A DNA stretch of 63,006 bases, filler included, from Nemertoderma westbladi (lineage: Eukaryota > Animalia > Xenacoelomorpha): NCBI GenBank assembly GCA_032718475.1. It is 4 parts of 4 records of this genome, joined end to end, with 100 filler letters (N's around TTAATTAATTAA, not from the genome) between each part and the next. Parts side by side here need not be neighbours in the genome. Positions count along the whole stretch, not along the records: positions 1 to 21,408 come from JAUCBJ010006075.1; 3 more parts are not named here. One strand, written 5' to 3'. The position numbers were made by a program, and so were the translations under genes. Positions within the stretch are counted from its first letter, which is position 1. Each line of letters opens with the position of its first letter. Positions 9,693 through 39,597 of this stretch are shown here, piece by piece. The notes under the pieces are model-generated. The model was not told where the DNA came from. It saw only the letters and a program-made list of their open reading frames with translations, and did not search any database.

Positions 9693-10056
9693 TTACACAG
9701 ACGTCTCGCTCTGCAACCTCAAAACGAATGTATTCTTACTCGGGTCCGGGGTGGGCAACTCGCGAATCTGAAAGTAAGGTAACCTGGATACCGCGACTAC
9801 TAGTTGGACACCGGAAGCCGAATGTCTGAGGCTAAAGTTAAACCCGCACCGGATGCTGGACAGAACAGATGTACTGGATTCTATAGTCCACTCTTCCTTC
9901 GATTTCATATCGTTCGCGTTACTGATTACAGCTCCGGGACTCAGGTATTCTTCCAGGAAAGCTCGTGGAGTGAAGTCCTGCTCTATGCAGACTGACAGAT
10001 GTTTGAGTATCGCTTCGGTAGAATGGTGATGGTGCTGTCTGGTTGCCCGTAGATAC
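9693..10056 (-). CDS. Vangl: Vang-like/strabismus, exon 5 (last)
   Basis: Acceptor TTACAG|G; encodes YLRATRQ...FTPRAFLEEYL...FVLRLQSETSV*, the Vangl C-terminal PDZ-binding motif. Confidence 0.95.
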
Positions 10057-10145
10057 CTGTAATTGAACAAAATAGTTATTGGCCGGAAATTCATATTTGA
10101 AAAAATTATGGGATTAGTAGTTCGGGTCAATACAGAGTTCGACCT

Positions 10146-13115
10146 GTAGCAGCATGGTAGCAGCATGGTAGCAGCCTGGTAGCAGCCTGATAGCAGCCTG
10201 GTAGCAGCCTGGTAGCAGCCTGATAGCAGCCTGGTAGCAGCCAGGTAGCAGCTGGGTAGCAGCCTGGTAGCAGCCTGGTAGCAGCATGGTAGCAGCCTGG
10301 TAGCAGCCTGGTAGCAGCCTGGTAGCAAAAGGGTAGCAGATTGGTAGCAGCCTGGTAGCAGTCTGGTAGCAGCTGGGTAGCAGCCTGGTAGCAGCAACCT
10401 GGTAGCAGTCTGGTAGCAGCCTGATAGCAGCCTGGTAGCAGCTGGGTAGCAGCCTGGTAGCAGCCTGGTAGCAGCCTGGTAGCAGCCTGGTAGCAGCTGG
10501 GTAGCAGCCTGGCAGCAGCCTGGTAGCAGCCTGGTAGCTGTCTGGTAGCAGCTGGGTAGCATCCTGGTAGCAGCCTGGTAGCAGCCTGGTAGCAGCCTGG
10601 TAGCAGCTGGGTAGCAGCCTGGTAGCAGCCTGGTAGCAGCACGGTAGCAGCCTGGTAGCAGCCAGGTAGCAGCCTGGTAGCAGCACGGTAGCATCCAGGT
10701 AGCAGCCTGGTAGCAGCACGGTAGCAGCCTGGTAGCAGCCTGGTAGCAACCTGGTAGCAACCTGGTAGCAGCCAGGTAGCAGCCTGGTAGCAGCACGGCA
10801 GCAGCCTGGTAGCAACCTGGTAGCAGCCTGGTAGCAGCCTGGTAGCAGCCTGGTAGCAGCCTGGTAGCAGCCAGGTAGCAGCCTGGTAGCAGCCTGGTAG
10901 CAGCCAGGTAGCAGCCTGGTAGCAGCTGGGTAGCAGCCTGGTAGCAGCCTGGTAGCAGCCAGGTAGCAGCCAGGTAGCAGCCTGGTAGCAGCCTGGTAGC
11001 AGCCAGGTAGCAGCCTGGTAGCAGCTGGCTAGCAGCACGGTAGCATCCAGGTAGCAGCCTGGTAGCAGCACGGTAGCAGCCTGGTAGCAGACTGGTAGCA
11101 ACCTGGTAGCAACCTGGTAGCAGCACGGTAGCAGCCTGGTAGCAGCACGGTAGCAGCCTGGTAGCAGCCTGGTAGCAGCCTGGTGGCAGCCTGGTAGCAG
11201 CCTGGTAGCAGCCTGGTAGCAGCCTGGTAGCAGCTGGGTAGCAGCCTGGTAGCAGCCTGGTAGCAGCTGGGTAGCAGCCTGGTAGTAGCTGGGTAGCAGC
11301 CTAGTAGCAGCCTGGTAGCAGCCTAGTAGCAGCCAGGTAGCAGCCTGGTAGCAGCCTGGTAGCAGCCTGGTAGCAGCCTGGTAGCAACCTGGTAGCAGCC
11401 AGGTAGCAGCCTGGTAGCAGCACGGCAGCAGCCTGGTAGCAACCTGGTAGCAGCCTGGTAGCAGCCTGGTAGCAGCCTGGTAGCAGCCTGGTAGCAGCCT
11501 GGTAGCAGCCAGGTAGCAGCCTGGTAGCAGCCTGGTAGCAGCCAGGTAGCAGCCTGGTAGCAGCTGGGTAGCAGCCTGGTAGCAGCTGGCTAGCAGCACG
11601 GTAGCATCCAGGTAGCAGCCTGGTAGCAGCACGGTAGCAGCCTGGTAGCAGCCTGGTAGCAACCTGGTAGCAACCTGGTAGCAGCACGGTAGCAGCCTGG
11701 TAGCAGCACGGTAGCAGCCTGGTAGCAGCCTGGTAGCAGCCAGGTAGCAGCCTGGTAGCAGCACGGTAGCAGCCTGGTAGCAGCCTGGTAGCAGCCTGGT
11801 AGCAGCCTGGTAGCAGCTGGTAGCAACCTGGTAGCAGCCAGGTAGCAGCCTGGTAGCAGCACGGCAGCAGCCTGGTAGCAACCTGGTAGCAGCCTGGTAG
11901 CAGCCTGGTAGCAGCCTGGTAGCAGCCTGGTAGCAGCAAGGTAGCAGCCAGGAGGCAGCCTGGTAGCAGCCTGGTAGCAGCCAGGTAGCAGCCTGGTAGC
12001 AGCTGGGTAGCAGCCTGGTAGCAGCCTGGTAGCAGCTGGGTAGCAGCCTGGTAGCAGCTGGGTAGCAGCCTGGTAGCAGCCTGGTAGCAGCCTGGTAGCA
12101 GCCTGGTAGCAGCTGGGTAGCAGCCTGGTAGCAGCCTAGTAGCAGCCAGGTAGCAGCCTGGTAGCCGCCTGGTAGCAGCCTGGTAGCAGCCTGGTAGCAA
12201 CCTGGTAGCAGCCAGGTAGCAGCCTGGTAGCAGCACGGCAGCAGCCTGGTAGCAACCTGGTAGCAGCCTGGTAGCAGCCTGGTAGCAGCCTGGTAGCAGC
12301 CTGGTAGCAGCCTGGTAGCAGCCAGGTAGCAGCCTGGTAGCAGCCTGGTAGCAGCTGGGTAGCAGCCTGGTAGCAGCCTGGTAGCAGCTGGGTAGCAGCC
12401 TGGTAGTAGCTGGGTAGCAGCCTAGTAGCAGCCTGGTAGCAACCTGGTAGCAGCCAGGTAGCAGCCTGGTAGCAGCACGGCAGCAGCCTGGTAGCAACCT
12501 GGTAGCAGCCTGGTAGCAGCTAGGTAGCAGCCTGGTAGCAGCCTGGTAGCAGCCTGGTAGCAGCCTGGTAGCAGCCTGGTAGCAGCTGGGTAGCAGCCTG
12601 GTAGTAGCTGGGTAGCAGCCTAGTAGCAGCCTGGTAGCAGCCTAGTAGCAGCTGGGTAGCAGCCTGGTAGCAACCTGGTAGCAACCTGGTAGCAACCTGG
12701 TAGCAGCCTGGTCGCAGCCTAGTAGCAGCCTGGTAGCAGCCTGGTAGCAACCTGGTAGCAACCTGGTAGCAGCATGGTAGCAGCCTGGTAGCAGCTGGGT
12801 AGCAGTCTGGTAGCAGCTGGGTAGCAGCCTGGTAGCAACCTGGTAGCAGCATGGTAGCAGCCTGGTAGCAGCCTGGTAGCAGCTGGGTAGCAGCCTGGTA
12901 GCAGCTGGGTAACAGCCTGGTAGCAGCTTGATAGCAGCCTGGTAACAGCTGGGTAGCAGCCTGGTAGCAACCTGGTAGCAACCTGGTAGCAACCTGGTAG
13001 CAACCTGGTAGCAGCCTGGTAGCAGCATGGTAGCAGCCTGGTAGCAGCTGGGTAGCAGCCTGGTAGCAGCCTGGTAGCACCCTGGTAGCAACATGTTAGC
13101 AGCCTGGTAGCAGCC
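10146..13115. repeat. 11-bp tandem satellite (GGTAGCAGCCT)n, ~270 copies, in Vangl intron 4
   Basis: Read directly; explains the LLPGCYQAATR ORFs. Confidence 0.98.
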
Positions 13116-13187
13116 CCAATATGAATGTCTAGAAATGGTTTGCCAGCCGCCACTCGCCACTCAAACCAGAGCGTCGTCTCCAACCAC

Positions 13188-13716
13188 TACTAGGATCGGC
13201 ATGCCGCATTGCAGCTGCATTTTTAAGAATGCTGTGCCGGCTTCAGCTCTCGGGGCAAATACCGCACCCTGGTTTGCCATTCCACAGGGTGGGTGTCGCA
13301 ATGGAGTCAGATATGAGGCCCATCACCCATATCTACTCTGGCGCACATGACCCACCATTGGCTGTTGCAGCTCATCTGTTGGGTCATGCCCTGTACCCCT
13401 GCTGCCAGGTGCAGGTCGCAGTGAAGTGCTCTCAGAGTGGACATGAGAACACTCTACTCCTGACCAGCCATTCGTAGATCACCATCTGCCTGGTCAGGCC
13501 ATATACCCCTGCAGCCAAGTATATGGGTCCTTAATCCAGGACCAAGGGCGTCCTTATCCCAGAACGAAGGGGGTCCTAGTTACAGGACCAGATTTGCCCT
13601 AGTAATAGGGTCTATGCAGCTACAGGTGGCACCTCCTTTATGCTGCATGGAGGTGACAAGTTTTCTTGATCAATGACCTAGAATACCTGACCTGAAAAGG
13701 TCAGGTATTCTAGGTC
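13188..13716 (-). mobile_element. ~530-bp non-autonomous retroelement sharing its 3' end with an RTE-like LINE
   Basis: 3' ~60 bp nearly identical to 29952-30012; TAG-type tail; 12-bp direct repeat GTCTCCAACCAC at 13176-13187 and 13714-13725. Confidence 0.75.
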
Positions 13717-14225
13717 TCCAACCACAACCCACGCGTATAGAAGAATACATAAAAATTAAAAGTTTATAAGTGATGATCAATATTTAATATTATAACTTTA
13801 AATTCAGAAAATATAGGAAAGCAATCAAAGGGTTACAAGTGTTAATAATATATTCTGTAAATATGATATTGGAGGTTAAATTATCCTGGGAGCAATTAAT
13901 TGTCCGGGGCCAATTGTCCTACTGTAGTTCCCTAGTACAAATTGAAACGAAATTAATGTGTTATTACGGGATGGAATAGAGCTCAGGTTACCTGTATAAA
14001 ATAATAATATTAAATATTAACAGTAATAACAGCTTTCTGTCAATCAGAGATTAAACTAACTAAACAAAGAATAAATAATAAATAAATGAAAAATAAACTC
14101 CTTCCCCTCCCCTTCTTTGTTCATTAAAAACTTATCTTTAAAAAAATTGATTTTGTTTTTTATAACCCTTGAGTTATGTGCACATACAATCTATAAATAA
14201 TCACTGTATTTAATACAACACGCAC

Positions 14226-14386
14226 CTCTGCAAGGTGTGTGCGAGACTTGGGAACACAGCCTTGGCCGCCTCATCAGGCCCCATCATCGCCAACCCTGGG
14301 AGCCTATCCGCTTCGCTCTGAATTCTCTTTATGTGCGTGAAAGCTTCCTCCGCAGCTACCATCAGCCTCGCACGTCGTTTCCGCAC
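14226..14386 (-). CDS. Vangl: Vangl exon 4
   Basis: TTAG|VRKRRARLMVAAEEAFTHIKRIQ...MGPDEAAKAVFPSLAHTLQ(R)|GTGCGT; phases 0 and 2 match both neighbouring exons. Not shown in this frame in the ORF track. Confidence 0.95.
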
Positions 14387-14393
14387 CTAATAA

Positions 14394-14590
14394 TGTAAGC
14401 AATAAGATAATAAAGTAAGCAATTTGAAAATAAAGTATGTTATAAGATAATAAAGTAAGCAATGTGATAATACGGTATGTTATAAGATAATAAAGTAAGC
14501 AATAAGATAATAAAGTAAGCAATAAGATAATAAAGTAAGCTATAAGATGATAAATTAAGCAATAAAATAATAAAGTAAGCAATAAAGTAA
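14394..14590. repeat. 20-bp minisatellite (GTAAGCAATAAGATAATAAA)n
   Basis: About 10 degenerate tandem copies next to the exon 4 acceptor. Confidence 0.85.
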
Positions 14591-14916
14591 TCAATTATTA
14601 CTATTATAATTCTAAACAAAATTTAATATTAAATAGTTGTTTAAATTTGATTTTTTTATGTTTAATTTATAGTTTGATTGAACAGTTATTGTAGTTGATT
14701 AACTTATTGATAAATTTTTTCAAATTACTGTACATTGATCAACAATAATGATCCTCTAATATCTGTCCTGAAATTGAGACACAGCAACAAAGCAATTTTT
14801 TCAATATCTTACAGAAAATGCCGAGTTCTATATAATTTTAATGCAGATTGCATAAAGCCATGTTTGTAATCAAGTAATTGGGGAACCGTACTATACGTTT
14901 GTAATAATAACATTTA

Positions 14917-15435
14917 CGTGGGGACTTCATGCAGCACTTAAGACAAGATGAGCTTTTGCGTAGCAGCAAAATTAGTTGACCTAGTCATTCGCCCCCTAGC
15001 GGCTGACAAAGGAACTATCTGTGTGTAGAATTTTTAAACTTTATATAGACTACATCTGTACCAAGTTTGATTTCATTTCAACAATAATTAATCAACAATA
15101 ATTGATCAAACATATCCAACAATGACGAGAGACAACAACAATGAAGTTATACCTATTCTAGAACTCTACAATTCTAGTGTGGGAAGAGCTCGTAGACTAG
15201 GAGAGGCGGTATAATTACTGGAACGTCTGTCATCGTCATTTAAAATGTTTGAAAGCAAATAAGTCGGCCAATTTTTGATTAAATGGAACCAAACTTGGTA
15301 AATATGTTGTCTATAAAAAGTTTAGAAATTGTAATCACATACTTATAGTTACCTTCTCAGCCGCTGGGGAGCGACCAGATCCACTAATTTCACTGCAAAG
15401 ACTCAACTTGACTTGGTGCGGCGAAGTCCCCCACG
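14917..15435. mobile_element. Inverted pair of a dispersed repeat (MITE-like)
   Basis: CGTGGGGACTTC...CGCCCCCTAGCGGCTGA...TACCAAGTTTGATTTCATTT on the left is mirrored at 15280-15435; another copy at ~18277-18450. Confidence 0.6.
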
Positions 15436-15871
15436 AAAGTATAGATTGAAGTAGGCCTTACAGTATTGTTGTAATGATCAATTGACTGAAATATTTTATT
15501 AAATTTCATGGGCCTACAGCATTACAAATGTGTGATGAATATATAGAGATAGATTAGATAAATTAATAGCCTTTCCAGCTTTCGTTATATTATTAATAAG
15601 TTTAGAATCCAGTACTCAATTAAACAGATAAACCGTCACTATAATAGAGATAGTTACCGTTTCAATCCAACATGACATAGGATAATGGATTACCCCTAAA
15701 ACATTGCGGCCTTTAGTGAAGGAGAGGATGAACACCCCATATGTTCGAAGGGTTTCTCAGACGGTAGAAATAAAGATTGTTGGTAAGAATTGTTTCTGCT
15801 TGGGTCTATAAAACACTTAGTATTTTCAGCTATCGCTTTATTCGCTACAACATTATCTATAATCAACGCAC

Positions 15872-16108
15872 CTTTCTCTCGATCTCGGATTCCTCATAGA
15901 ATCGATCGTTCCTCCCGCTATCTCGTTGTCTCGCCGCCGCGGCTAACAAGGCCTGAGACGCCCCTAGCGGGTCCTCATTCCCACCGTCTACGTTGTAGAA
16001 CTTAAACCCGGCGAAGTGTTTGAGACTTCGACTTGGTATGTTTATAAGGTTCGGGTTGTACAACGGAAAGTCTCGATAGTAGAATTGTAGAATTTGTTCT
16101 GCCGTTTC
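15872..16108 (-). CDS. Vangl: Vangl exon 3
   Basis: TAACAG|ETAEQILQFYYRDFPLYNP...GFKFYNVDG...AAAARQRDSGRNDRFYEESEIERK|GTGCGT; 237 bp, phase 0/0. Confidence 0.93.
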
Positions 16109-16361
16109 CTGTTAAGGGCAGTTCCAATTAAAGAAGCCAAGTTTATAAATATCTATAAGTTACATTTGAGAAGAAACTTTTTACAGGAGTAGTGCAGATT
16201 AATAGCATTACGCAGGTAGTGAAAAGTAATTTTCAGCGGGAATTCAACATAAGTGACCTCTTAGCCATTCGTTTTTTTATTTTTTTTTTATATATTTATT
16301 TATTTTTTTTTATTTGTCGCAGTGCAATTTTATTTTCTTGGCGCCCTCTAATGGAACTGTC

Positions 16362-17174
16362 CTGAATAGGATAAGCCGGCAAATTGTAGAAGCGAGTTTC
16401 GCCGTCCGTCCCTCGTATAACTTTAACCGTAAATAGAACTCGTCTTGATCTTATCTCAAAGAATAACAAAGCCAAATAATGTATAAAAATTAGGCCATCC
16501 ACTAGAGATGAAGCGAATTCAACAATATTCTGGTACGAATGAATTTTTAGTTTTAGAATTCGAATGCAAAACACCAGCCAATAGGTAGTGAGAATTAATA
16601 TTATTAATCCAATTACGATAAGTTTATGAATAGCAGCTCGCGGTAATGTAGATAGTCTCCTTCGAAGGAATAAACCCCAGGTTCCGAGGCCCAAAACGAT
16701 AAATTTAAAACCGAAATTAATAAATATAGAGTCGCATCCAGTACCACATGTCTCATATTCCCATAGAAACAGAGGAAGTATTATAAATATAATAGGAGTT
16801 AGGTAAGCTGATACACAAACGCAGGTTGATATACTGAGTAGTAAACAATTCCAACCGTTCCTGCCTCCCCATTGGTTAAGGGATGATGAGTCATCCTCGA
16901 TATCTTTCATTAACATGTGTTGAGCTTCCCCATTGGTTGAGGTTCTATCAGCGCTTGTTGCCGTGACTACGGTCTGTGTTTCGGTCCAGTCCTCGGGGAG
17001 TCTCGAGTGCAGACCCCGTATTGGAGACTCCGCCCTATTGAATGTGACCTCTAGCGGCGATATTCGAGGGGAGACAATTCGCCTGGCTGAATCGCGTTTG
17101 CTGATTGGCTGTTTGTCGTCGCTTTTTTTAGATGGTGTGTTGTTAGTGGAAGATGAGTAATCTGGGAATTTCTC
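16362..17174 (-). CDS. Vangl: Vangl exon 2 (Ser/Thr motif and four transmembrane helices)
   Basis: TTTTAG|EKFP...EDWTETQTVVTATS...FASSLVDGLIFIHYLALLFFEIR...VIRGTDGETRFYNLPAYPIQ; 813 bp, ending at a GA donor. Confidence 0.92.
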
Positions 17175-18613
17175 CTAAAACAACATAAAATATAAAGCTA
17201 ACATATTTTATTCTCAAATAATATTCGCAGTCGTGAGCCCATATACACGGGGCGAGCCACGAAGTAAGGTGCGGAGCCTTAGCTTAGGCCTAAGTTAGTT
17301 ATGGTTAACAACGTGAATTCCGCATAAACATTACCAATAATCGCAACAATACTGACAGAGGGGGGGGGGGGGGGGGGGGGTGAAGCGAATCACATCCCGA
17401 TGAATTAACATTGTTAATTATGAATTACCAATGGAAAGGAATAGGTTACAGCGGCATGCTATTCTAACGAATACAATAAACTCGAGTCAATATGACATGT
17501 CACAGTTTATATTGTAATTTTTGTTTTTGTTTTTTCAGTCGTTTTCCCTGGATGAGTAGAATGTATTTTTTTCATCGTCTCCGTTACATCTGCAATAATA
17601 GAGCAATTTACTATTTAATTTACTATCTGGTGTATTTGCATATAGCGATGATATTGTAATGTATGTACTTGAAATAATTTAAAACATATATCCGTGTAAT
17701 TAACTTATTAAATTATTTATTTGTATATATATATATATATTAGGTAGTATTAATCATACTTAAATACGCGTTTGAGCCTTTGTTTAAATATTATTTTCTT
17801 GGACGATTGTTGCGACTCTTAGCCCTCTGCCCAATTTCACACAAATTAATTAAAGCTTATATTTGTCCCGGTATTTTGCCTGACGGTTAATGTACCGTCA
17901 TTTTAATATTATCCGTCCATTTGTCTATTGTTTTGTTTGTTTTTGTTACATTGTTTTCCGTTGTTACGTCTCTTCTTGTCAGTTGCTTGTGGCTATTTAC
18001 TGGTAATTTTATCGTCAATAAACTTAATAATAATAATATGGCTTGTCTCATACCTATTATACTGTATATTATGGTGTCGGTGTCATTGCGCACGTTCAAA
18101 CATTGAGGAAGTTGGGGTTGGACAATGTCCAACACTTAGTTCTTTCGGTGGTTTTTTTTGAAGATCGGCCTTAGTCAGGAATCGAATTCGTGTATCCTAC
18201 AATACGAACCATAGGATACACTAGTAGGATACAAGTGTATCCTACAACAGAAAGGAACCATACAGGATACAAATAAGTGGGGACTTCACGCAAGATGACC
18301 TTTTGCATTTAGCTACAATTAGTGGTCCTAGTCATTCGCCCCCTAGCGGTAGACAGATAAATTATAGAAGTCTGTCTGTGTATAGAATTTCCCAAGTTTT
18401 TATAAACTAGGCCCTACATCTTTACCAACTTTGTTTCAATTTCATCCAAGATTAACTGACTTATTCACGTTCCAACATTTTCGACAACGACCTAATGGTT
18501 CCACTACAGCTCACCTGAACTTACCTATGGCTCGCCCCATGCTAGTATACTGTAGTTATTTTCCATGTAATAATATAATTTTTAATTTAATAATTTCCTA
18601 CATACTAACTAAC

Positions 18614-18931
18614 CTTACTAGTAGACAATCCAACATTGTTAGAGACCATATCAGCAACACCAAGATGGGCAACACCAGACGGCAGCTGAATGACCCCTCC
18701 CGGCAGCTGATAGACCTTGCTAGGCAGCCTACCATTGGGTGATTTTAACAGCTTCCCGGTTCCCGGCTCATAATCTTGGCAACTCCCTCTGGCGGGCAGT
18801 CTTGGGACCGAGGTGTGTAAATCGTTAATAATGTTGTTGGTGATTATAGTTCCATTGTTCTGTCCGTAACATCTAATATTTCCAACATTTGGCCCATTTT
18901 TACGGACACTGGACTCGTGAGATTTATCCAT
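18614..18931 (-). CDS. Vangl: Probable Vangl exon 1
   Basis: ATG-initiated 106 codons ending at AAG|GTTAGT, phase 0, in frame with exon 2 (total 630 aa). The sequence is not recognisably conserved. Confidence 0.6.
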
Positions 18932-19584
18932 TTATACAGTAGAACAAATTCGCCCTGAATATGTCTACCAAAACTACAATCTGTGAAATTATCACATTCC
19001 ATACAAAAACTTATACTTTAAGTACTTATTCCCAAGGTAATATATCCTCTCAATGTTAAATTACCAATTTAGGGAATGGAGCAGGTTATACTGTACAATA
19101 ATATATTGCTTAAAAAGACAATTTGTGGAATAATATAATTTAGACAACAGGCCTACCCGGCTGGGCAAAAAATTGTATCTTTGAAAAAGCTGTAATGTGG
19201 TGCGTTTAAACTTCGTAATGAGAAAAACTAATTTAAATAATTCATTATGGTGACGGGATCAGAAAAGTCTGTCTGTTGGTTGGGAATATATCGAGAGTTA
19301 AAAGCTTAATGAATAACTTAGCTTAATAAAATAATTGGAATTAATTATTCATGACTTTGGCGTAAAGAATAAGTATAAATACAAGAATAGCTGTGATTGG
19401 TTTCACTAACATCGGCCTACCTCAATAAAAACAACATGAAGTAATGGTAATATTTCGAGAAATTATCTTTAAAAGTGAAAAAATCGATTTTGAAATACTG
19501 TACTCTATATAGAATTGGTTGAATTTATTGTATCAATTCAATACGTAACCTATTTAGCATCAAAAAACAGTCTTATAGTCTTAA

Positions 19585-20561
19585 GGGGATCAGTATACAG
19601 GCATTCAAATTTTTTTTCTAATTTGTCCGTCAGTATGTCTGTCCGTCAATAAAAAGCAAACTATCTGTATTCCCTACAGTATATGGGTTTTCGTGGTCGG
19701 TGACTTCATTTCTGATGTCAATATTCAAATTTGGCCTCGTCGTTTCTGACTGTATGACTGTCAGTATGTCCGTCAAAATATAACCGACAGACTGACTGCC
19801 AAACAGACAATTTGGAAGTCATCAAATGTTAAAACTGACACTCGAAATGAATTCTGCGACCAGGAAAACGACTCTAGCTAAACTCTGAACTAGATTGTAT
19901 GCCTTTTTCTTATATTTGACGGACAGATTGTCGGATAGTCAGAAAGACCGACAGACAGACATACAGACAAACAAGAATTGATTAAAAGTGAAAAAACTGA
20001 CCTCAGAAATTAAATCAGCGACCAGGAAAACCCCATAGCAAAAATCTTAGCATGGTTTTGTGCTTTCTTTTTGCTAGGTATATATTGACAGACATTATTT
20101 CATAATTAATGAACAGACAGTTTTTGCGCGGGAAGGTTCAAATTTTAAATGGATTTTTCTCAAAATGTGTTTTTCAAATTTTTTCGGTACATGTTTCTCA
20201 GCTGCCATTTGAGTTATAGACTTGAAAATTTCTCACTAGGATGATTTTTTTACCGTAGAATAACGTAAAACAATTAGTTTGTTTTATATTGTGACACAAT
20301 TTGTGTAGACATAAGCACCGAATTGTAATTTTAATGTTTGTGACACTAATTATTTGGCTATTTTTTTTTTAATTAGGTCAATTTTACAAAAAAATAAGCT
20401 AAATATATTAAAAAAACTTGAAATTCAAAAAAAATTGGTTCACCAGAAAGCCCATTAAATTCCAGTTGGAATGCAAGAATAGTTGGCCTATAAGTAATCT
20501 GATGCGTTCTAACCGAGGCTTAATCGTAGTTTGTATGGTAAAAATGCCTGTATTACTCCCC
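19585..20561. mobile_element. Non-autonomous DNA transposon with TTAA target duplication (Kolobok-like)
   Basis: TTAA|GGGGATCAGTATACAGGCATT ... AATGCCTGTATTACTCCCC|TTAA, with internal inverted subrepeats. Confidence 0.7.
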
Positions 20562-21029
20562 TTAATATTGTTATTTTATAATTAATTAAAAATAATGTAT
20601 TAAAAATCTAAACTCAATTTGAAATTAATATATAAAAAACAACTAAATTAAATGAATTAAACAAATCGCTCGGCGAAATATTATTTGCAGTTATGAGCAA
20701 ATTTTGTCTGCGAAATCCATATATAGGCCTATGGATTGAATTAAAGCGATACAGGACGTTGATAATGGAAACTAATACTGCATCGATGCCGGTATACACA
20801 GTTAATGTGTCAGCTATCAGTTTATTGACATTCACAAGTGTTTTAGATATCACGCATAAGCTGCTAGTTAGCCAGCTATCGACGTAACAAATTATTATGC
20901 AAATAGTACTTTCATATTAGCCTGAAAATTAAATTGTAAAACTGAAATTTGTGCTGAAATTTCCATTGAAAATTGCCTGGCCTGATATGATTGACTAACA
21001 TTTTCAGGAAATCACTGGTTGTTTTGGCG

Positions 21030-21408
21030 AAATTACTTGAACTCAGAATTGATGTTTGCTACACAAGACTACTAAGGGCAGCCCAAAACATCAGCTGGAG
21101 ACAGCACATGACAAACGCCGAGCTTTATGGTACAATACCACCTGTATCAACCACCCTCCGTGAACGCAGATTAAGATTCAGTGGGCACTGCTGGCGAAGT
21201 AAAGACGAGGTCATACCAGATCTACCTTTCTGGCAACCAACACAAGGAAAGCGTAGTCGTGGACGACCTGCCATAACATAAATAGATCAACTTGAAAAGG
21301 ATACTGAAATTGGGAGAAACGAAATTGCAACAACTATGGAGAATCGGGAAGCCTGGAAGGATCTTCTTTACAATGCCCGAGCTCGCTCGACCTAGTAGTA
21401 GTAGTAGG
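21030..21408 (+). mobile_element. 3' remnant of an RTE-like LINE
   Basis: YTRLLRAAQNISWRQHMTNAELYG...RLRFSGHCWR...WQP...RGRP followed by a (TAG)n tail. Confidence 0.8.
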
Positions 21409-21508
21409 NNNNNNNNNNNNNNNNNNNNNNNNNNNNNNNNNNNNNNNNNNNNTTAATTAATTAANNNNNNNNNNNNNNNNNNNNNNNNNNNNNNNNNNNN
21501 NNNNNNNN
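21409..21508. other. Assembly gap/linker (N-TTAATTAATTAA-N)
   Basis: 100-bp spacer with stops in all six frames. Confidence 0.97.
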
Positions 21509-23835
21509 TAGACGCACCCAGTGGTGCACGGGCCCTTAGACGCACCCAGTGGTGCACGGGGCCTTAGACGCACCCAGTGGTGCATGGGGCCTTAGACGCA
21601 CCCAGTGGTGCGTCACGGGGCCTTAGACGCACCCAGTGGTGCGTCACGGGGCCTTAGACGCACCTAGTGGTGCACGGGGCCTTAGACGCACCCAGTGGTG
21701 CGTCACGGGGCCTTAGACGCACCTAGTGGTGCACGGGGCCTTAGACGCACCCAGTGGTGCGTCACGGGGCCTTAGACCCACCAGGTGGTGCGTCACGGGG
21801 CCTTAGACGCACCCAGTGGTGCACGGGGCCTTAGACGCACCCAGTGGTGCACGGGGCCTTAGACGCACCCAGTGGTGCACGGGCCCTTAGACGCACCCAG
21901 TGGTGCACGGGGCCTTAGACGCACCCAGTGGTGCACGGTGCCTTAGACGCACCCAGTGGTGCACGGGGCCTTAGACGCACCCAGTGGTGCTTCACGGGGC
22001 CTTAGACGCACCCAGTGGTGCACGGGGCCGTAGACGCACCCAGTGGTGCACGGTGCCTTAGACGCACCCAGTGGTGCACGGGGCCTTAGACGCACCCAGT
22101 GGTGCACGGGGCCTTAGACGCACCCAGTGGTGCACGGGGCCTTAGACGCACCCAGTGGTGCACGGGGCCGTAGACGCACCCAGTGGTGCACGGTGCCTTA
22201 GACGCACCCAGTGGTGCACGGGGCCTTAGACGCACCCAGTGGTGCGTCACGGGGCCTTAGACGCACCCAGTGGTGCACGGGGCCGTAGACGCACCCAGTG
22301 GTGCATGGTGCCTTAGACGCACCCAGTGGTGCACGGGGCCTTAGACGCACCCAGTGGTGCACGGGGGCCTTAGACGCACCCAGTGGTGCACGGGGCCTTA
22401 GACGCACCCAGTGGTGCACGGGGCCTTAGACGCACCCAGTGGTGCACGGGGCCTTAGACGCACGCAGTGGTGCGTCACGGGGCCTTAGACGCACGCAGTG
22501 GTGCGTCACGGGGCCTTAGACGCACCAAGTGGTGCATGGGGCCTTAGACGCACCCAGTGGTGCGTCACGGGGCCTTAGACGCACCCAGTGGTGCGTCACG
22601 GGGCCTTAGACGCACCTAGTGGTGCACGGGGCCTTAGACGCACCCAGTGGTGCGTCACGGGGCCTTAGACGCACCTAGTGGTGCACGGGGCCTTAGACGC
22701 ACCCAGTGGTGCGTCACGGGGCGGGGCCTTAGACCCACCAGGTGGTGCGTCACGGGGCCTTAGACGCACCCAGTGGTGCACGGGGCCTTAGACGAACCCA
22801 GTGGTGCACGGGGCCTTAGACGCACCCAGTGGTGCACGGGCCCTTAGACGCACCCAGTGGTGCACGGGGCCTTAGACGCACCCAGTGGTGCACGGTGCCT
22901 TAGACGCACCCAGTGGTGCACGGGGCCTTAGACGCACCCAGTGGTGCGTCACGGGGCCTTAGACGCACCCAGTGGTGCACGGTGCCGTAGACGCACCCAG
23001 TGGTGCACGGTGCCTTAGACGCACCCAGTGGTGCACGGGGCCTTATACGCACCCAGTGGTGCACGGGGCCTTAGACGCACCCAGTGGTGCACGGGGCCTT
23101 AGACGCACCCAGTGGTGCACGGGGCCTTAGACGCACCCAGTGGTGCGTCACGGGGCCTTAGACGCACCTAGTGGTGCACGGGGCCTTAGACGCACCCAGT
23201 GGTGCGTCACGGGGCCTTAGACGCACCCAGTGGTGCACGGGGCCGTAGACGCACCCAGTGGTGCACGGTGCCTTAGACGCACCCAGTGGTGCACGGGGCC
23301 TTAGACGCACCCAGTGGTGCGTCACGGGGCCTTAGACGCACCCAGTGGTGCACGGGGCCGTAGACGCACCCAGTGGTGCACGGTGCCTTAGACGCACCCA
23401 GTGGTGCACGGGGCCTTAGACGCACCCAGTGGTGCACGGTGCCTTAGACGCACCCAGTGGTGCACGGGGCCTTAGACGCACCCAGTGGTGCACGGGGCCT
23501 TAGACGCACCCAGTGGTGCACGGGGCCTTAGACGCACCCGGTGGTGCGTCACGGGGCCTTAGACGCACCCAGTGGTGCACGGGGCCTTAGACGCACCCAG
23601 TGGTGCGTCACGGGGCCTTAGACGCACCCAGTGGTGCACGGGGCCGTAGACGCACCCAGTGGTGCACGGTGCCTTAGACGCACCCAGTGGTGCACGGGGC
23701 CTTTGACGCACCCAGTGGTGCGTCACGGGGCCTTAGACGCACCCAGTGGTGCGCGGGGCCTTAGACGCACCCAGTGGTGCACGGGGCCTTAGACGCACCC
23801 AGTGGTGCACCCAGTGGTGCGTCACGGGGCCTTAG
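21509..23835. repeat. GC-rich 28/31-bp satellite GGGGCCTTAGACGCACCCAGTGGTGC(GTC)AC
   Basis: About 80 tandem copies read directly. Confidence 0.98.
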
Positions 23836-24435
23836 GGAGAAGTCACCAATTGTACAATGTACTGTCCGCCGTTGGTGTTAGAAATAAAACTGAAACATTT
23901 CTGTAGAAAACAGTAATTAATAAAAGTAAGAGTTATTATATTTATATAAATTAATTATTGTTTGCATCCATCAATGGTTCACTTCATACCTAATCAATTA
24001 ATATTTTAAAGTTAAACTCTTTAATTAAAACTATTTCTACAAGAGTTATTTCAAGAAATTTTAATTAAAGAAGCGGCGAAAACTCAAATATTTTTAGAAG
24101 GCGACTGACATACTGTACGTGTACACTACTGTACAGGTAGGGAAGATGCCAAAACATTTTGTACTCAAAGTTAAAATAAAACATTTTATTTCCCGCTAAT
24201 TAAATAACTAAAATAGCAGTTTTATTCTTTACAAATATTGCATTATTATTAGCTTTATCGTTATTGCAAAGCAAAACCAACCAAATTGCATAGAAACAAG
24301 TATAAATATGATAACTAATAATAATAGAAAGGAATTCTAGAACAGACTTCCTTGCTAATAATAGTTAATAAAACAAGTTAACAATGTATTAGCATGGCGT
24401 CTTGGTGTTATATGGTTAGTATTACTAGAGTATTA

Positions 24436-25329
24436 CTAGTTATATTGTTGTGGGTTGATTACGATACAATGTTTGGCTAGTTGTTTAATCGCGATAAACT
24501 GCCGCTTAAATTCCAAACCGCAACCTTTGGATAACCGGAAGTCGACCAACGACATCCCCCCGCCTACCGGAAGTACCGCGACCCGGAACACCAAGTCGAC
24601 CTTCCGTTTATCCAACAAACTAACCGCGTAAATACCGCGGTCTATCGACTTAAACTGGTAACCTAAACGCGAGAAAATCACGAGGAATTCAGCGTGGATA
24701 TCCGATTCGGTGTAGTTCGTAAAGAATCGAGTCATTCTCTTGACGAGTTTAGCCAGCGGGTTGGAGCCTTGGGTCAGTTGGGTAGTCAAGGATTGGGTGC
24801 TTAGCAACATGTCCCCGCCGTCAGTGGGCTGCGAGAAGAACAGTTCGATCTGGGGGTCGCGTCTCGGGGGTTTAAATCCGTCGACTGGAGGAGGAGGCGG
24901 CATCGGTTGGCTGTAGACCGCCGACGGTACAGTCTGGTAGTTCTCTTTGTCCGGAGAAGGGCCAACTCTAAACCATCTATCGGCACGGATAGCTAACACT
25001 GTGGCTCGGGACTCGACTACCGGATTTAGTATCTTACAGAGGAGTCCGAGACACTCTGTAGATAGTTTACACCACGGGGAGTTAGTGTAGCCCTTAGCCA
25101 ACCAGGCGGCGTACTGTACCGCGGTAGTCGAGGGTGTGTCCCACGGTAGTTCTCCCGCTAGCATCGTGACCAAAACGATCCCGCAGCTCCAGATGTCGGC
25201 GGGTTCCGCGAGGTATTCCGCTCTCGCGAATACCTCCGGCGCCGAGTAAGGGGGAGTCCCGCAACAACGACTCAACTTACGAGTTTTATCTTTTATACGG
25301 AAGGCGGTACTCAGTCCGAAATCCGAGAT
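24436..25329 (-). CDS. chk1: Serine/threonine kinase Chk1, exon 2
   Basis: CTAAG|ISDFGLST...CGTPPYSAPE...DIWSCG; SQ sites (YSQP, FSQP); C-terminal RMTRFF and DFRLSKGCGLEFKR motifs. Confidence 0.95.
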   Translation of the reverse strand: MSDFGLSTAFRIKDKTRKLSRCCGTPPYSAPEVFARAEYLAEPADIWSCGIVLVTMLAGELPWDTPSTTAVQYAAWLAKGYTNSPWCKLSTECLGLLCKILNPVVESRATVLAIRADRWFRVGPSPDKENYQTVPSAVYSQPMPPPPPVDGFKPPRRDPQIELFFSQPTDGGDMLLSTQSLTTQLTQGSNPLAKLVKRMTRFFTNYTESDIHAEFLVIFSRLGYQFKSIDRGIYAVSLLDKRKVDLVFRVAVLPVGGGMSLVDFRLSKGCGLEFKRQFIAIKQLAKHCIVINPQQYN

Positions 25330-25813
25330 CTTAGAGAGAGAGAGGGGTTTCCTTCGCGTATTAATTTCTCTGTCGCTTTTTATCACTTTTATTACTCGGA
25401 GGGGAAAAGGAGCCCAGCCAGCATGTAAAATAATGTAGTTTATTATTTTGGTTAGAAAACACCGCCACTGTAACCTGCTCCTCTACGTTACCGGTAATGT
25501 TTTCAATTAAATAAAATTAATCTTTCAAACTCACTAAAACAAATTATTTTGTGTTTACGGCCATTTTGCGCCATTGACTCAACTCTAAAGGAAAAATAGA
25601 GTCAAATAATTGGTGATTACGAATGAAAATGTAACCTGTGATGTGCATTTTAACTATATTCATAATGACCTGATGATCCTTGTTTATCTGTTTATTGTAG
25701 GCCTATCTTACCAACGCCAAAATCGTGCAAAAGCAAAAACGTGGAAAAATCTGGTAAGAAAATAGTGGCCTAGTGGCCTAATGCTGTAAAAAAACACGTG
25801 AAAGAAAACTCCC

Positions 25814-26257
25814 CTTCAATAAATCGTCGTCCCCAATTAATAGGTTCTCCGGCTTTATATCCCTGTGGGTTACTCCCTTACTGTGGAGGTATTCTACTCC
25901 GGTTATCAGCTGAGTAAAGAATCTGTGGGCCTCGAATCTGGGCATACCTATATCGGGTTCTATTCTATCGAACAGCTCCCCACCACTGGCGTACTCAAGG
26001 AATATATACTCGGTGGGGAAGTCCGTTCTGTGGCCGAAGAATTTCACGATGTTACAATGTTCCAACATTCGGTGTAACACAATCTCTTTTCTGACGTTTT
26101 CCTGTACTTGTTGGTTTAGATTCAAGTTGATTATCTTTACGGCTATCGCTTCCTGTGTTTCCTGGTTCACCGCCAGTTTAACTTCACCGTAAGCTCCCTC
26201 ACCCAGGGTCTGGATAAGGTCCCATCCTTCTACGAAATGCCCAGGATTGGCTGCCAT
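25814..26257 (-). CDS. chk1: Serine/threonine kinase Chk1, exon 1
   Basis: [29 protein letters not shown]...[14 protein letters not shown]...[18 protein letters not shown]; ends at AAG|GGGAGT. Confidence 0.95.
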
Positions 26258-26378
26258 TACCACTGTAGTAAATAGGTAAATACAGTACCTGCAACGCGGA
26301 AAGTTTTCACATTTTATATGACTGTGTATTACAGTATTAACTGATTAAAAAATGGTTAATAACTATGCTATGGTCAGA

Positions 26379-28688
26379 CAGTTAAGTAGGTTTCTTAAAT
26401 AGGAAGTTTTTTTTTCTTCCTATATAGGAAAAAGTGCTTCCTATATGACATTTTTGCCATATTTCTGAACATTTTCTTCGTTATCTTTTGAATTAAATTT
26501 TAGCGGCATATTTGAATTCCTGCTTATTGCAGGTTAATCATTACTACGTTTGTTGTGAAAACTATCTTTGCGTTCGCTTTCTATAGCCATTTTAAAAACG
26601 TTACTTTTTCCGAGAATTTTTTATATAGGAAATATTTTTTAGACGTCCTATTTAGGAGTTTAACTTATTTCTTATTTAAAATATTTTATGTATATATTTT
26701 TCTTAAATAAGAAAATATATATATTTTCCAGCAGTTCAATCCAGATACTGATAGGGCTGGGGCTGGGATACAGTTAGTTGCCCCGTCATCCTGTCTAGGC
26801 TATATGGTTTGCAGTTTCAGATAATACAGCAATATAAAACTACATCCCTCCAACACAGAGGGATATTTTTTTTAATATAATTAATAATTATTAATGCATA
26901 TTATTTTTATAATAATTAATGATTATTTATAACATATATATACCGGTATATAGTATATACCATATATATATGTCCCATATATCATATATATATATCGTAT
27001 ATATCCCATATAACATATATATATATTACAATAATATTTTTAATTGCATTTTTTTTAACTGCATTTTTAATTATTAGTAGATATACATTTTATAATTAAT
27101 TAATTATTTTAGCTATTTTATAAATTATTAATTCCATATGTTGGATTAAAGAATATAACTATTATCTGATTATTATTATTAATAATATTTTTGTAAAAAT
27201 TAACAGATTAATAATTATTCATGCAATATTATTTTTACAATAGGCCCCCTAAGCCTAATTAATAATTATTTTGCAATAATATCTTAAAATAATTAATAAT
27301 TATTGATGCAATATTATTTTTACAATAATTAATAATTATTTATGCAATAATATATTTTTTTAATAATTAATAATTAATTATGCAATACTATTTTTGCAAT
27401 AATTAGGCCTAATAATGCAATATTATTTTTAAAATAATATTTTTAAAATAATTAATAAATTAGGCCTATTAATGCAATATTATTTTTAAAATAATATTTT
27501 TAAAATAATTAATAAATTAGGCCTATTAATGCAATATTATTTTTAAAATAATATTTTTAAAATAATTAATAAATTAGGCCTATTAATGCAATATGATTTT
27601 TATAATAAATAATGATTATATATGGATCAAACAATAATTTTTGTGTAATAATTAACAGATTGATAATTATTCATGCAATATTATTTTTAAAAATACCAGT
27701 ATATAGGCTTAATTAATAATTACTTTCAGACTTTGCTGCTTTGCAATAATATTTTAAAATAATTATTAACTATTGATGCAATATTATTTTTACAATAATT
27801 AATAATTATTTATGCAATAATATTTTTTTTAATAATTAATAATTATTTATGCAATAATATTTTTACAATAATTAGGCCTAATAATTATTGATGGAAAAGT
27901 TTTTATTACAATAATATAGTATTAGAATATACTATATAGGGAAAGAGTACAGGAGTATAATATAGGGAAAGAATAATGGCAAAGTTAATTTCAGAATGCC
28001 TGTTGTTTTTCATCTACCGTAAGTCTAGCTACTGCAGTACTGTAATTGTGAGTGGAACAAAATTATCTGTCATAGGAACAAAAATTAGACAGACAGACTA
28101 ATTAAATTTCATAGGAACAAAATTCACTCAAATAGGAACGAAATTCGCAAAAAATAGGAACAAAGTTCTATGTGAATTGGAACACAATTCGCATTATCAC
28201 ATTTTAGGAACAAAGTTCGCGCTCCGAAGCTTACAGAAATTTATCGCACTCTACATTAATAACATCATCTTAAACTGAACTGGCAACTGGCAAGTCATAA
28301 TTTTTCTTAATTAAGAAAAATCAAGACATAAAATACTTTAAATAAGAAATAAGTTAAACTCCTAAATAGGACGTCTAAAAAATATTTCCTATATAAAAAA
28401 TTCTCGGAAAAAGTAACGTTTTTAAAATTGCTATAGAAAGCGAACGCACAGATAGTTTTTTTTCTAGTTTTCACAACAAACGTAGTATAGGCTAGATTAT
28501 CCTACAATAACCAGGAATTCAAATATGCCGCTAAAATTTATTTCAAAAGATAACGAAGAAAATGTTCAGAAAAATGGCAAAAATTTCCTATATACAGATA
28601 TAGGAAGCACTTTTTCCTATATAGTACTGTAGTACTGTAGTATATAGGAAGAAAAAAAACTTCCTATTTAAGAAACCTACCCTAACTG
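26379..28688. mobile_element. 2.3-kb non-autonomous TIR element with ~340-bp arms and an AT-rich repetitive core
   Basis: 26379-26715 is the reverse complement of ~28310-28688; CAGTTA..TAACTG termini; 5-bp direct repeat TCAGA on both sides. Confidence 0.85.
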
Positions 28689-29196
28689 TCAGAAGATATA
28701 AAACTGTATTATATCAGTATATTCAGATATTACAGTACCGGTACCGTATATTATAGGCCTAGCTGCCTAGTCCAGTTCCAGTAGTCTGTTAAAACTTGCT
28801 CATAAGCCAGTAAAAAAATCAATAGGCCTACTGCTGTACTGGAAATGGAACACATGGTACAGTACAGTGCCCGCCAGTCAGGCAGTAGGCCTGCAGTGGC
28901 TGAGTGGTACGTACTAAATGCTGAAACACCTCTGCTGCTCTGCACCTTGTTTAAGCAAAAATTCGAAATAAATATCACAAGCTGGCAAGCACGGTGCACG
29001 GGGGTTTACGGTCCTACTTTTTTACTTCTGACTTATATCATTTTATACCGGTATACTTCAAACTACAGTATGCAGTACTGCACACTGATACATATAACTA
29101 AAATACTGAAATACCGCCAAACTGCCAACAAGCAGACCAGTACCGGTTGATTTCACTATTTCTACAAAATTCAAATTTCCCGGGTTTTACTTTTCA

Positions 29197-38181: not shown

Positions 38182-39597
38182 CTACTTGAGGTCTTCTAAG
38201 TAAGGAGTGGTCATTAGGTTACCTACGGAGGCCATAGACTTGGGACCCGAGAGGACCCGGGAAGCAACCTTGGCGACAGTTTCTAGGGTAACCGCCTCGA
38301 CCAATCGCTCGACGTTGGCGAGGGATATGTGCATCCCGGTTGGGTAGACCATCCGCGCGAGGTAGTCGAGCATCCCTTCAGGGGTGGCCGCCGTCTCGTG
38401 TAGGTTCACTAGGAGGCGCTTCTTGGCGCGACGGAGATGCGCGTCGGTGAGCAACCCGCCGTCCCGTACGGCGGCCAGCGTCGCGTTAACCTCCGCGACG
38501 GCCTCGCCGGCTCGCGAGCAGTGCGCCGCGACAAGGACCCCGAAGAGTCCGGCGTCCGCGTAGCTGTGCGAGAAGGCGGAGAAACCCGCGGGCGTCGCGG
38601 CGAGTCCGACCCCGAGAACCGAGGAGGAATCCGCGCCCCAACGGCACTTGGGTCCGTCCGCGCCCAAGGCGTAGCGGAGTAACTCCAACGGGAGAACGTC
38701 GTCGCTTAACGCGGCGGCGCCCTCGTAGGTGAGGGCGCAGACGACCCAGTCGTCGGGGGTGGCGAGACGCTCCTGGCCGGGGCGGAACCGCGACGGAGTG
38801 CTAGCTACCCCGCTGCTGTCCTGCGCGATCCCGTCTCCTAGCAGCACGGAAGCGAAACCGTTGAGCTCGTAATGCGAGACGCCGTAACCAATGAGAGCGA
38901 TCGATTCCGCTTTAGTTACGGCGTCGTGATACTCGCGAAGTCGCGTCGGGTTGTTGATCAATGGGAGGTTATCCGGGGAGGCGTAGATAGAGTTAGCGAG
39001 CCCCCCGGTGAAGGAGGCACGGTGCAGCAACTCGGTGACCAACGCGGCGGGGTTGCTACGCAACCACGCGGAGTCGTAGCGAACCGCTTCGGCGATCCAG
39101 GGCTCGACCTCGTGCCAATCGAGCCGCGGGTTAATGGCCGCCTCGGCCACGTACTGTACGGCGAGATCGGCTCGGTCGCGCTCGCAAACCGCGGTGTAGA
39201 CGAGATGGTCCCGCGTGCCGGAGACCTGCAGGTCGATGCCGTAGTAGTTGGACTCCTTTATTAGCGTTACGGAGGGGAACTTCTCGGTTGAGGTGTGGCC
39301 GCACGCTCGCAGCGCGTGGCTGATGCCCTCGAGTCCCGGAGGTTCGTACCGGGATCCGCCCGTTACCACGACACCGACTCGTGCGTACAGACTACCGGGG
39401 TCACAGGACACCACAGAGACCCCGTTGGGTAGTTTGCTCAGAGTAACATCCTCCTTCTGTGTCGCATCTCGCACGCTCAGGGATTGCTGCTCCTTTAGTT
39501 TGCTCGACAGACTTCCGGAACGGACCAGCGCTGACTCGGACTGATGTCGCGCGACGAAGTGCCGAGAACGGATCTGGCTTGATACTTTCGCCAACAT
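38182..39597 (-). CDS. UQCRC2: Cytochrome b-c1 complex subunit 2 (core protein 2, inactive M16 family), mitochondrial precursor; intronless
   Basis: Arg/Ser-rich presequence; SKLPNGVSV..GGSRYE..GISHALR (no HxxEH); LHRASF.GGLANS; FSHSYADAGLFGV; C-terminal SMASVGNLMTTPYLEDL. Confidence 0.92.
   Translation of the reverse strand: MLAKVSSQIRSRHFVARHQSESALVRSGSLSSKLKEQQSLSVRDATQKEDVTLSKLPNGVSVVSCDPGSLYARVGVVVTGGSRYEPPGLEGISHALRACGHTSTEKFPSVTLIKESNYYGIDLQVSGTRDHLVYTAVCERDRADLAVQYVAEAAINPRLDWHEVEPWIAEAVRYDSAWLRSNPAALVTELLHRASFTGGLANSIYASPDNLPLINNPTRLREYHDAVTKAESIALIGYGVSHYELNGFASVLLGDGIAQDSSGVASTPSRFRPGQERLATPDDWVVCALTYEGAAALSDDVLPLELLRYALGADGPKCRWGADSSSVLGVGLAATPAGFSAFSHSYADAGLFGVLVAAHCSRAGEAVAEVNATLAAVRDGGLLTDAHLRRAKKRLLVNLHETAATPEGMLDYLARMVYPTGMHISLANVERLVEAVTLETVAKVASRVLSGPKSMASVGNLMTTPYLEDLK

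What the first reader, a model, noticed from the sequence alone, without database searches (positions are those of the whole stretch)
16109..16361. Vangl intron 2 is a 253-bp GA-AG intron bounded by a ~26-bp inverted repeat
Seen: splicing ATTCAG|GACAGT...TAACAG|GAA gives PIQ-ETAEQILQF-YY, the same nine-residue spacing I recall for the Vangl motif SIQ-RAAVWVLEK-YY. The 5' end AGGACAGTTCCATTAGAGGGCGCCAA (16363-16338) matches the reverse complement of the 3' end AGGGCAGTTCCAATTAAAGAAGCCAA (16115-16140). After the repeat comes CTTAACAG, resembling the exon end CTATTCAG (5/8), as expected for a decayed 8-9 bp target duplication that provides the AG. A canonical alternative (ACA|GTTCCA to GCAG|AA) is in frame but has a weak donor and deletes two residues.
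Basis: partly seen in the sequence, partly recalled or inferred. Interest (0 to 1): 0.82.

Follow-up and report, generated by a model that had tools for sequence, protein, structure and literature searches.

The report
Transposon-like GA-start intron in Vangl
An intron in an invertebrate animal's Vangl cell-polarity gene starts with GA instead of the near-universal GT, is cleanly missing from a spliced transcript, and has mirror-image ends that likely come from an old mini-transposon; a neighbouring gene has a predicted GG-start intron, so this animal likely tolerates unusual splice starts more widely.

Summary
Confirmed. One contig of run X4 (labelled 'DNA?', behaves as RNA) joins four Vangl exons and skips exactly 253 nt here, so the 259-nt canonical alternative is refuted. 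DNA contigs of X1 and X2 cross the intron with no differences. The GA..AG splice gives the 9-residue spacing of 63 of 63 aligned homologues. The end-to-end inverted repeat beats 3000 of 3000 shuffles; the gene's three GT-AG introns have none. None of 54 orthologous loci covering the site has an intron there, though 9 have one 7 nt upstream. Both arms read AG|GRCAGT, so the intron was likely born with a non-GT donor from a decayed MITE. Not shown: sibling copies (no genome held) and the target duplication (8-bp, 10-bp and TA registers all fit). Nearby Chk1 needs a GG-AG intron (116 of 116 homologues; no RNA check). GA/GG donors and inverted-repeat Introners are known kinds; the lineage (possibly acoel, unproven) would be new. 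The scan earlier noted a GG-start intron in another, acoel genome.

The parts
16109..16361 (-). Vangl intron 2, 253 nt, GA..AG, phase 0 (after Gln of PIQ)
   Evidence: X4 record 28 skips 253 nt; homologue spacing
16356..16364 (-). donor CAG|GACAGT, 7 of 9 to MAG|GTRAGT, A at +2 and C at +3
16338..16363 (-). 5' arm of the inverted repeat (extends 16329-16371, into the exon)
16115..16140 (+). 3' arm of the inverted repeat (extends 16107-16149); its reverse complement reads AG|GGCAGT
16360..16364 (-). left copy of the 5-nt junction repeat CAGGA (core of an 8/11 direct repeat)
16107..16111 (-). right copy of CAGGA, holding the acceptor CAG|G
16362..17174 (-). Vangl exon 2 (four transmembrane segments, ends PIQ)
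   Evidence: Pfam PF06638 E 5.6e-57; X4 record 28
15872..16108 (-). Vangl exon 3 (starts ETAEQILQFYY)
   Evidence: Pfam E 5.4e-25; X4 record 28
18614..18784 (-). first Vangl exon covered by the transcript contig; GT-AG intron 1 is 17175-18613
14226..14386 (-). Vangl exon 4; GT-AG intron 3 is 14387-15871
9693..10056 (-). Vangl last exon (ends ETSV); GT-AG intron 4 is 10057-14225, acceptor placed by reading frame and homology only
25330..25813 (-). Chk1 single intron, 484 nt, predicted GG..AG, donor AAG|GGGAGT (8 of 9), weak inverted repeat at the ends; exons 25814-26257 and 24436-25329
   Evidence: 116 of 116 homologues with the motif need this spacing; IR 62 of 3000 shuffles; no RNA check

Best explanation
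This is a 253-nt GA-AG intron that is removed from the Vangl mRNA, and it likely arose when a short non-autonomous DNA transposon (MITE-like Introner) inserted at a CAG|G site of the coding exon. Shown: removal of exactly 253 nt restores the conserved protein; the ends are an inverted repeat; the position is not shared with orthologues. Inferred: the left terminal repeat, read after the exon's CAG, gives CAG|GACAGT, a donor that keeps -3..+1 and +4..+6 of the U1/U6 consensus and lacks only +2 and +3, and the duplicated or native CAG on the right gives the acceptor, so the major spliceosome takes it out without changing the protein's length. Because the other arm reads AG|GGCAGT, neither arm has T at +2: the intron was likely born with a GA or GG donor rather than decaying from GT, and the element would offer such a donor in either orientation. 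The arms differ at about a quarter of their letters, so the insertion is likely old. The predicted GG-AG intron in Chk1, 9 kb away, suggests that tolerance of non-GT donors is a property of this animal's spliceosome and not of one intron.
For: Transcript contig skips 253 nt and X4's depth over the two bins that hold the intron (25.4, 19.5) equals exon-only cover by that one contig. DNA contigs X1 record 4 and X2 record 10 cross it with 0 other letters, so GA is not an assembly error in those samples. Reading through the intron meets a stop after 22 codons. Spacing 9 in 63 of 63 homologues. Inverted repeat 0 of 3000 shuffles; RNA fold pairs the two ends, z -2.65, 2 of 200 shuffles as good. 54 of 60 orthologous loci show Q plus the next 9 residues uninterrupted, 35 distinct peptides, 17 of them with intron-like gaps elsewhere; the other 6 were not scored by that script. 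The window is rich in inverted-repeat elements (e.g. 14920-15431, 57143-57477, 48727-49723). All five donors in the window keep AG at -2/-1 and GT at +5/+6. Introner families with terminal repeats and up to 40% GA donors are described (Gozashti 2022, passages).
Against: No sibling copy: none in the window, DNA depth over the intron equals the one unique contig at 90% likeness, no look-alike among scanned windows. No target duplication stands out: the best direct repeat is 8/11, and 4 of 7 once CAG|G is set aside (P 0.09). 9 loci have an intron 7 nt upstream, in the Ser codon. Only one transcript contig from one run supports the splice, and that run is labelled 'DNA?'. The donor has C at +3, where copepod and Oikopleura GA donors nearly always have A. 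The Chk1 inverted repeat is weak (62 of 3000) and unlike the Vangl one. The residues beside the junction are odd (Pro where 70 of 77 homologues have Ser and none Pro; Glu where 60 have Arg and 5 Glu), which the model does not explain.
Confidence: 0.63

Rival explanations
1. An older GT-AG intron (possibly the Ser-codon intron slid by 7 nt) whose donor later mutated to GA; the inverted repeat is secondary, from a later insertion or from selection for a stem that holds the ends together.
For: 9 of 60 loci have an intron 7 nt upstream (donors L011, L017, L028; acceptors L026, L049, L056, L058-L060) and L051 has one 12 nt upstream. The donor is otherwise a near-perfect consensus. No sibling elements were found.
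Against: The other arm also lacks T at +2; the repeat reaches both junctions and is far above chance; 39 or more loci have no intron at either place; a 7-nt slide needs compensating changes in a conserved motif.
Confidence: 0.17
2. A new intron made by repair of a staggered break, with a captured fragment of a foldback repeat as filler; no transposase acted here.
For: Short direct repeat at the junction (CAGGA; 8/11 extended); single copy; many palindromic repeats in the window. Repair-born introns with short direct repeats are known from Daphnia (recalled; only a search listing seen).
Against: Both arms end symmetrically at the splice junctions, which a random filler would rarely do.
Confidence: 0.1
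3. The same 253 nt are removed but in another register of the CAGGA repeat (AG..AC, as in Fritillaria) or by a stem-guided, non-standard route as in euglenids.
For: The mRNA is the same in all six registers; the predicted stem buries both splice sites; Fritillaria's MITE-born introns are AG-AC/AG-AT (review PMC11282704).
Against: Three of four Vangl introns are plain GT-AG; Chk1's intron has no AG..AC or AG..AT register but has GG..AG; the GA register matches the donor consensus at 7 of 9.
Confidence: 0.06
4. The cell uses the canonical GT..AG pair (16357..16099, 259 nt) and the 253-nt join is a reverse-transcriptase jump across a hairpin between short direct repeats.
For: Hairpin plus 5-nt direct repeat is the usual anatomy of such artefacts (mentioned in PMC7072748 passages); only one contig was seen.
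Against: No contig with the 259-nt join or with the intron retained is listed for X4 (tables were cut); that donor scores 3 of 9; it removes two residues from a spacing kept in 63 of 63 homologues; unspliced RNA would truncate Vangl.
Confidence: 0.04

Closest known systems
GA and GG donor introns of the copepod Eurytemora affinis (Robertson 2017, PMC5714493, whole text read) and GA-AG introns of Oikopleura dioica (Frey and Pucker 2020, PMC7072748, passages)
   Same: GA or GG donor after an obligate exonic AG, normal AG acceptor, constitutive use, lineage-specific position, mixed with GT-AG introns in one gene.
   Different: C (Vangl) or G (Chk1) at +3 instead of the near-constant A; an inverted repeat at the ends, which neither text that I read reports; an intron-poor gene context; another lineage; frequency here unknown (2 of 5 introns in this window).
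Introners, MITE-derived introns (Gozashti 2022, PMC9860276 and its preprint, passages and a supplement search; review PMC11282704, parts 1-2 of 5)
   Same: Short (253 nt), terminal inverted repeat, one splice site from the element and one from the target, no change of mRNA length, GA donors known.
   Different: No family of similar copies shown; arms about 27% diverged; duplication length unresolved. That survey found Introners in only two animal groups.
Fritillaria borealis non-canonical introns (review PMC11282704; bioRxiv 10.1101/2025.08.15.670264, passages)
   Same: [quoted passage not shown]
   Different: There AG-AC/AG-AT dominate and under 10% of introns are GT-AG; here the acceptor is likely AG and 3 of 5 introns are GT-AG.

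Membership tests
Introner (MITE-derived intron) | Removed from mRNA as an intron | tested here: met
   X4 record 28 skips 253 nt
Introner (MITE-derived intron) | Family of similar introns or elements in the genome | tested here: inconclusive
   None in the window; single-copy depth at 90%; the 80% lay lost even the self contigs; no genome held
Introner (MITE-derived intron) | Terminal inverted repeats | tested here: met
   0 of 3000 shuffles; 18 of 4164 window pairs
Introner (MITE-derived intron) | Target-site duplication | tested here: inconclusive
   In-frame registers 8 bp 5/8, 10 bp 7/10, 12 bp 8/12, or TT/AA at a possible TA site; P 0.41 to 0.04 by how matches are counted
Introner (MITE-derived intron) | Lineage-specific position | tested here: met
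   0 of 54 covering loci have an intron at Q|X; 9 have one 7 nt upstream; no close relative among them
Eurytemora/Oikopleura-type GA/GG donor intron | AG ends the preceding exon; AG acceptor | tested here: met
   CAG|GA ... CAG| and AAG|GG ... AAG|
Eurytemora/Oikopleura-type GA/GG donor intron | A at intron position +3 (nearly always) | tested here: not met
   C in Vangl, G in Chk1
Eurytemora/Oikopleura-type GA/GG donor intron | Genome-wide frequency of several percent | not testable with these tools
   Only five introns in the window; 2 of 5 are non-GT
U12-type (minor) intron | 5' end RTATCCTT and a TCCTTAAC branch site about 10-20 nt before the 3' end (consensus recalled) | tested here: not met
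   5' end is GACAGTTC; CCTTAAC abuts the AG
Fritillaria-type AG-AC/AG-AT intron | Cut at AG..AC or AG..AT | tested here: inconclusive
   An AG..AC register gives the same mRNA; the other introns of the window argue against it

The most novel reading that the evidence does not exclude
A third animal lineage, possibly an acoel worm, has a major spliceosome that routinely accepts GA and GG donors, and after losing many old introns it was re-seeded by DNA transposons whose terminal repeats read AG|GRCAGT and so make a seamless intron in either orientation. A sizeable share of its introns would then be missed by standard gene models.
Probability: 0.35. Interest if true: 0.72.

Novelty: new member of a known kind. 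Interest (0 to 1): 0.45.

Why it matters
GA and GG donors are about 0.02% of human introns and common only in one copepod and one larvacean in the papers read; Introners were found in only two animal groups. A transcript-supported GA-AG intron with transposon-like ends in a core polarity gene, beside a second non-GT intron, points to another animal in which transposon-born introns and relaxed donor reading go together. That would give an independent test of how U1/U6 pairing can do without +2 U, and it would mean that gene models of this animal are truncated at such introns. As a single old copy it is only a good example of a known kind.

Tried and rejected
No whole genome is held, so no genome-wide sibling search. 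No RNA holder was listed as RNA; X4 was judged RNA-like only because one contig joins exons across three introns. The second lay (16030-16440, 80% likeness) laid only 1 contig in four runs and missed contigs known to cover the stretch, so it says nothing on siblings; this also left Chk1 without an RNA check. Word-based protein searches with Vangl exon 2 and with the M16 peptidase gene found nothing at the thresholds used; HMMER did. Rfam found nothing in 14000-27000. TTAA (TTCA/TTAA, 3/4) and TWA (TCA/TTA, 2/3) duplications fit the letters but imply a net -2 or -3 nt change of the mRNA, so were set aside. Look-alikes of the arm at 41647 and 47798 lie inside the long arms of another element, not at its ends. 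Lineage: the Vangl tree puts the window in a 96/98 set with chordate, sea-urchin, placozoan and acoel rows but with no sister (20 of the 150 hits or their cluster members; a quick 49-row tree was no clearer); a clade with Convolutriloba macropyga Vangl and one allied row is not rejected (p-AU 0.57), which does not show it. The 'break upstream' label is a script fault; only its Q|X column is used. Literature: searches and passages of four xenacoelomorph genome papers showed no report of GA/GG donors or Introners in that group; PMC6451197 says it found no introns made only of transposons. Searches gave nothing used. Supplements: 12 of 14 files of PMC12130899 had no hit for six genus names; the file of PMC9860276 was cut when stored and lists one acoel only among the genomes screened; bioRxiv supplements and subscription papers (such as the original Fritillaria paper) were not seen and may bear on the novelty claim.

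Full report
Gene and observation. The minus strand of 9693-18784 holds a five-exon Vangl/Strabismus gene (Pfam PF06638 on three exons; one open frame ending in ETSV when joined). Exon 2 ends ATT CAG at 16362 and exon 3 starts GAA at 16108; between them lie 253 nt that begin GACAGT and end TTAACAG. Read through, the frame stops after 22 codons, so something must be removed. The profile runs from position 251 to 254 across the join with two residues between, leaving no gap. Of 150 homologues, the 63 that carry the downstream motif were aligned: all 63 have nine residues between Q and YY, as the GA-AG model does; the canonical alternative has seven.

Transcript evidence. Eight runs were listed, none on record as RNA. 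X4 held 0.76 of the words, about what an intron-less copy would. Laid on 13200-21400, X4 record 28 (1533 nt, depth 41.6) is made of 14224-14381, 15867-16106, 16360-17173 and 18613-18784 in unbroken record order. It thus skips introns 1 and 3 at their GT-AG ends and skips 253 nt at intron 2, keeping 16099-16106, which the 259-nt canonical alternative would remove. X4's depth in the two bins over the intron (25.4 and 19.5) is what that contig's exon parts alone give. DNA contigs of X1 and X2 (two samples, two studies, either possibly the source of the window) cross the intron with no other letters. This is one contig from one run. The join lies in a 5-nt repeat, CAGGA, so six registers give the same mRNA; only GA..AG ends in AG.

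The inverted repeat. The arms match at 19 of 26 letters and extend to 43 nt at 72%, reaching into both exons. The score was reached by 0 of 3000 shuffles and 18 of 4164 equally spaced window pairs; the three GT-AG introns are at chance. Folded as RNA the ends pair (z -2.65; 2 of 200 shuffles as good). The left arm reads AG|GACAGT and the right arm, reversed, AG|GGCAGT. Neither has T at +2. If the repeat had carried GT, the working donor would have had to lose it against selection and the other arm as well; it is simpler that the intron was born with GA or GG (inference).

Target duplication. The best direct repeat is 8/11 (5 of 8 without CAG, P 0.04; 4 of 7 without CAG|G, P 0.09). In-frame symmetric registers are 8, 10 and 12 bp, and a two-base site reading TT/AA. 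The last would fit a TA-targeting element with CAG-starting ends landing before a host CAG codon (Tc1/mariner habit, recalled), which needs three later changes, as many as the 8-bp reading. These cannot be told apart without siblings.

Position. A metagenome scan gave 60 Vangl loci. In 54 the Gln and the next nine residues are uninterrupted (35 distinct peptides; 17 show intron-like gaps elsewhere, others may be transcripts); 6 were not scored. None has an intron at Q|X. Against my reading: nine loci have a phase-2 intron in the Ser codon 7 nt upstream and one has an intron 12 nt upstream, so sliding cannot be excluded, and none of the loci is a close relative. The flanking residues are also unusual (Pro for Ser, Glu for Arg).

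Siblings. None in the window; DNA depth over the intron equals the unique contig at 90% likeness; no look-alike among scanned windows. The 80% lay failed to lay even known contigs and no genome is held. With arms this diverged, siblings would likely be missed. The window holds several other inverted-repeat elements, so such elements are common here.

A second case. Chk1 (24436-26257, minus) is split once. Joining AAG at 25814 to ATC at 25329 gives the 12 residues between KxEN and DFG found in 116 of 116 homologues that match the motif, of 120 listed; the intron is GG..AG, donor AAG|GGGAGT (8 of 9). Its ends pair weakly (62 of 3000 shuffles; fold z -2.81). No RNA was laid on it. So 2 of 5 introns in the window have non-GT donors, and all five keep AG at -2/-1 and GT at +5/+6.

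Mechanism. Shown: removal, repeat, new position. Inferred: a short DNA transposon inserted at CAG|G; its left end completed a donor that pairs with U1/U6 at all but +2 and +3; the CAG on the right became the acceptor; the major spliceosome removes it. A branch-point candidate (CTTTAAT, about 20 nt from the 3' end) lies in the 3' arm; it is untested. The 5' end does not match the U12 consensus (recalled).

Comparison. Robertson 2017 (PMC5714493, whole text) reports 10-12% GA/GG donors in Eurytemora, always after AG, nearly always with A at +3, at new positions. Frey and Pucker 2020 (PMC7072748, passages) add Oikopleura. Gozashti 2022 (passages; supplement search) describe Introners with terminal repeats, up to 40% GA donors, in only two animal groups. 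Mikina 2024 (PMC11282704, parts 1-2 of 5) and bioRxiv 10.1101/2025.08.15.670264 (passages) describe Fritillaria. Gozashti 2025 (PMC12130899, passages and 12 of 14 supplements) gave no xenacoelomorph. The intron works like an Introner with a GA donor; membership is open because no family is shown.

Lineage and earlier notes. The organism is an animal with no close relative in the protein searches (Chk1 at most 73%; Vangl at most 49%). An earlier unchecked note calls this genome likely an acoel; my trees neither show nor reject that. Another note reports a GG-start intron in another, acoel genome; it is a lead and not support. Passages of four xenacoelomorph genome papers and the searches named under Tried and rejected showed no report of such donors there.

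Verdict. Real, transcript-supported GA-AG intron; transposon origin likely (about 0.63); a new member of a known kind, of more interest if the lineage-wide reading holds.

Noticed in passing
window 25330-25813 (-): Chk1's only intron is predicted GG..AG with weakly paired ends and a CT microsatellite before the acceptor; it also holds a 45-nt piece of a dispersed repeat (copies near 17437, 39906, 54335, 58298).
   Followed up: partly
window 14387-15871 and 10057-14225 (-): Vangl introns 3 and 4 both start GTGCGT; intron 3 has a 7-nt repeat AGGTGCG across its two junctions, as a target duplication would, but no end-to-end inverted repeat.
   Followed up: partly
window 14388-14585 and 10146-13115: A 20-bp tandem array abuts the acceptor of intron 3 and a 270-copy 11-bp array lies near the acceptor of intron 4, like the splice-junction satellites noted elsewhere in this genome.
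   Followed up: no
window 41287-48157: A 6.9-kb foldback element: two arms about 82% alike over 3.4 kb, built of 147/167-bp tandem units behind unique outer ends.
   Followed up: no
window 26374-26715 / 28302-28693: A 2.3-kb inverted-repeat element starts about 120 bp upstream of the Chk1 start codon.
   Followed up: no
window 38185-39597 (-): An intron-less M16 peptidase gene (mitochondrial processing peptidase / complex III core type); with single-intron Chk1 it suggests an intron-poor lineage.
   Followed up: no
window 13243-13716: A very high-copy repeat (summed contig depth above 400,000 in DNA runs) ending in a 19-bp perfect hairpin with a GAAA loop.
   Followed up: no
window 14920-15431: A 512-bp self-complementary MITE-like element nested in Vangl intron 3, with a related piece in intron 1 (18283-18481).
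   Followed up: no
L051 about 2150-2200: One orthologue has its intron 12 nt before the Q|X site, a third position within 12 nt in this motif.
   Followed up: no
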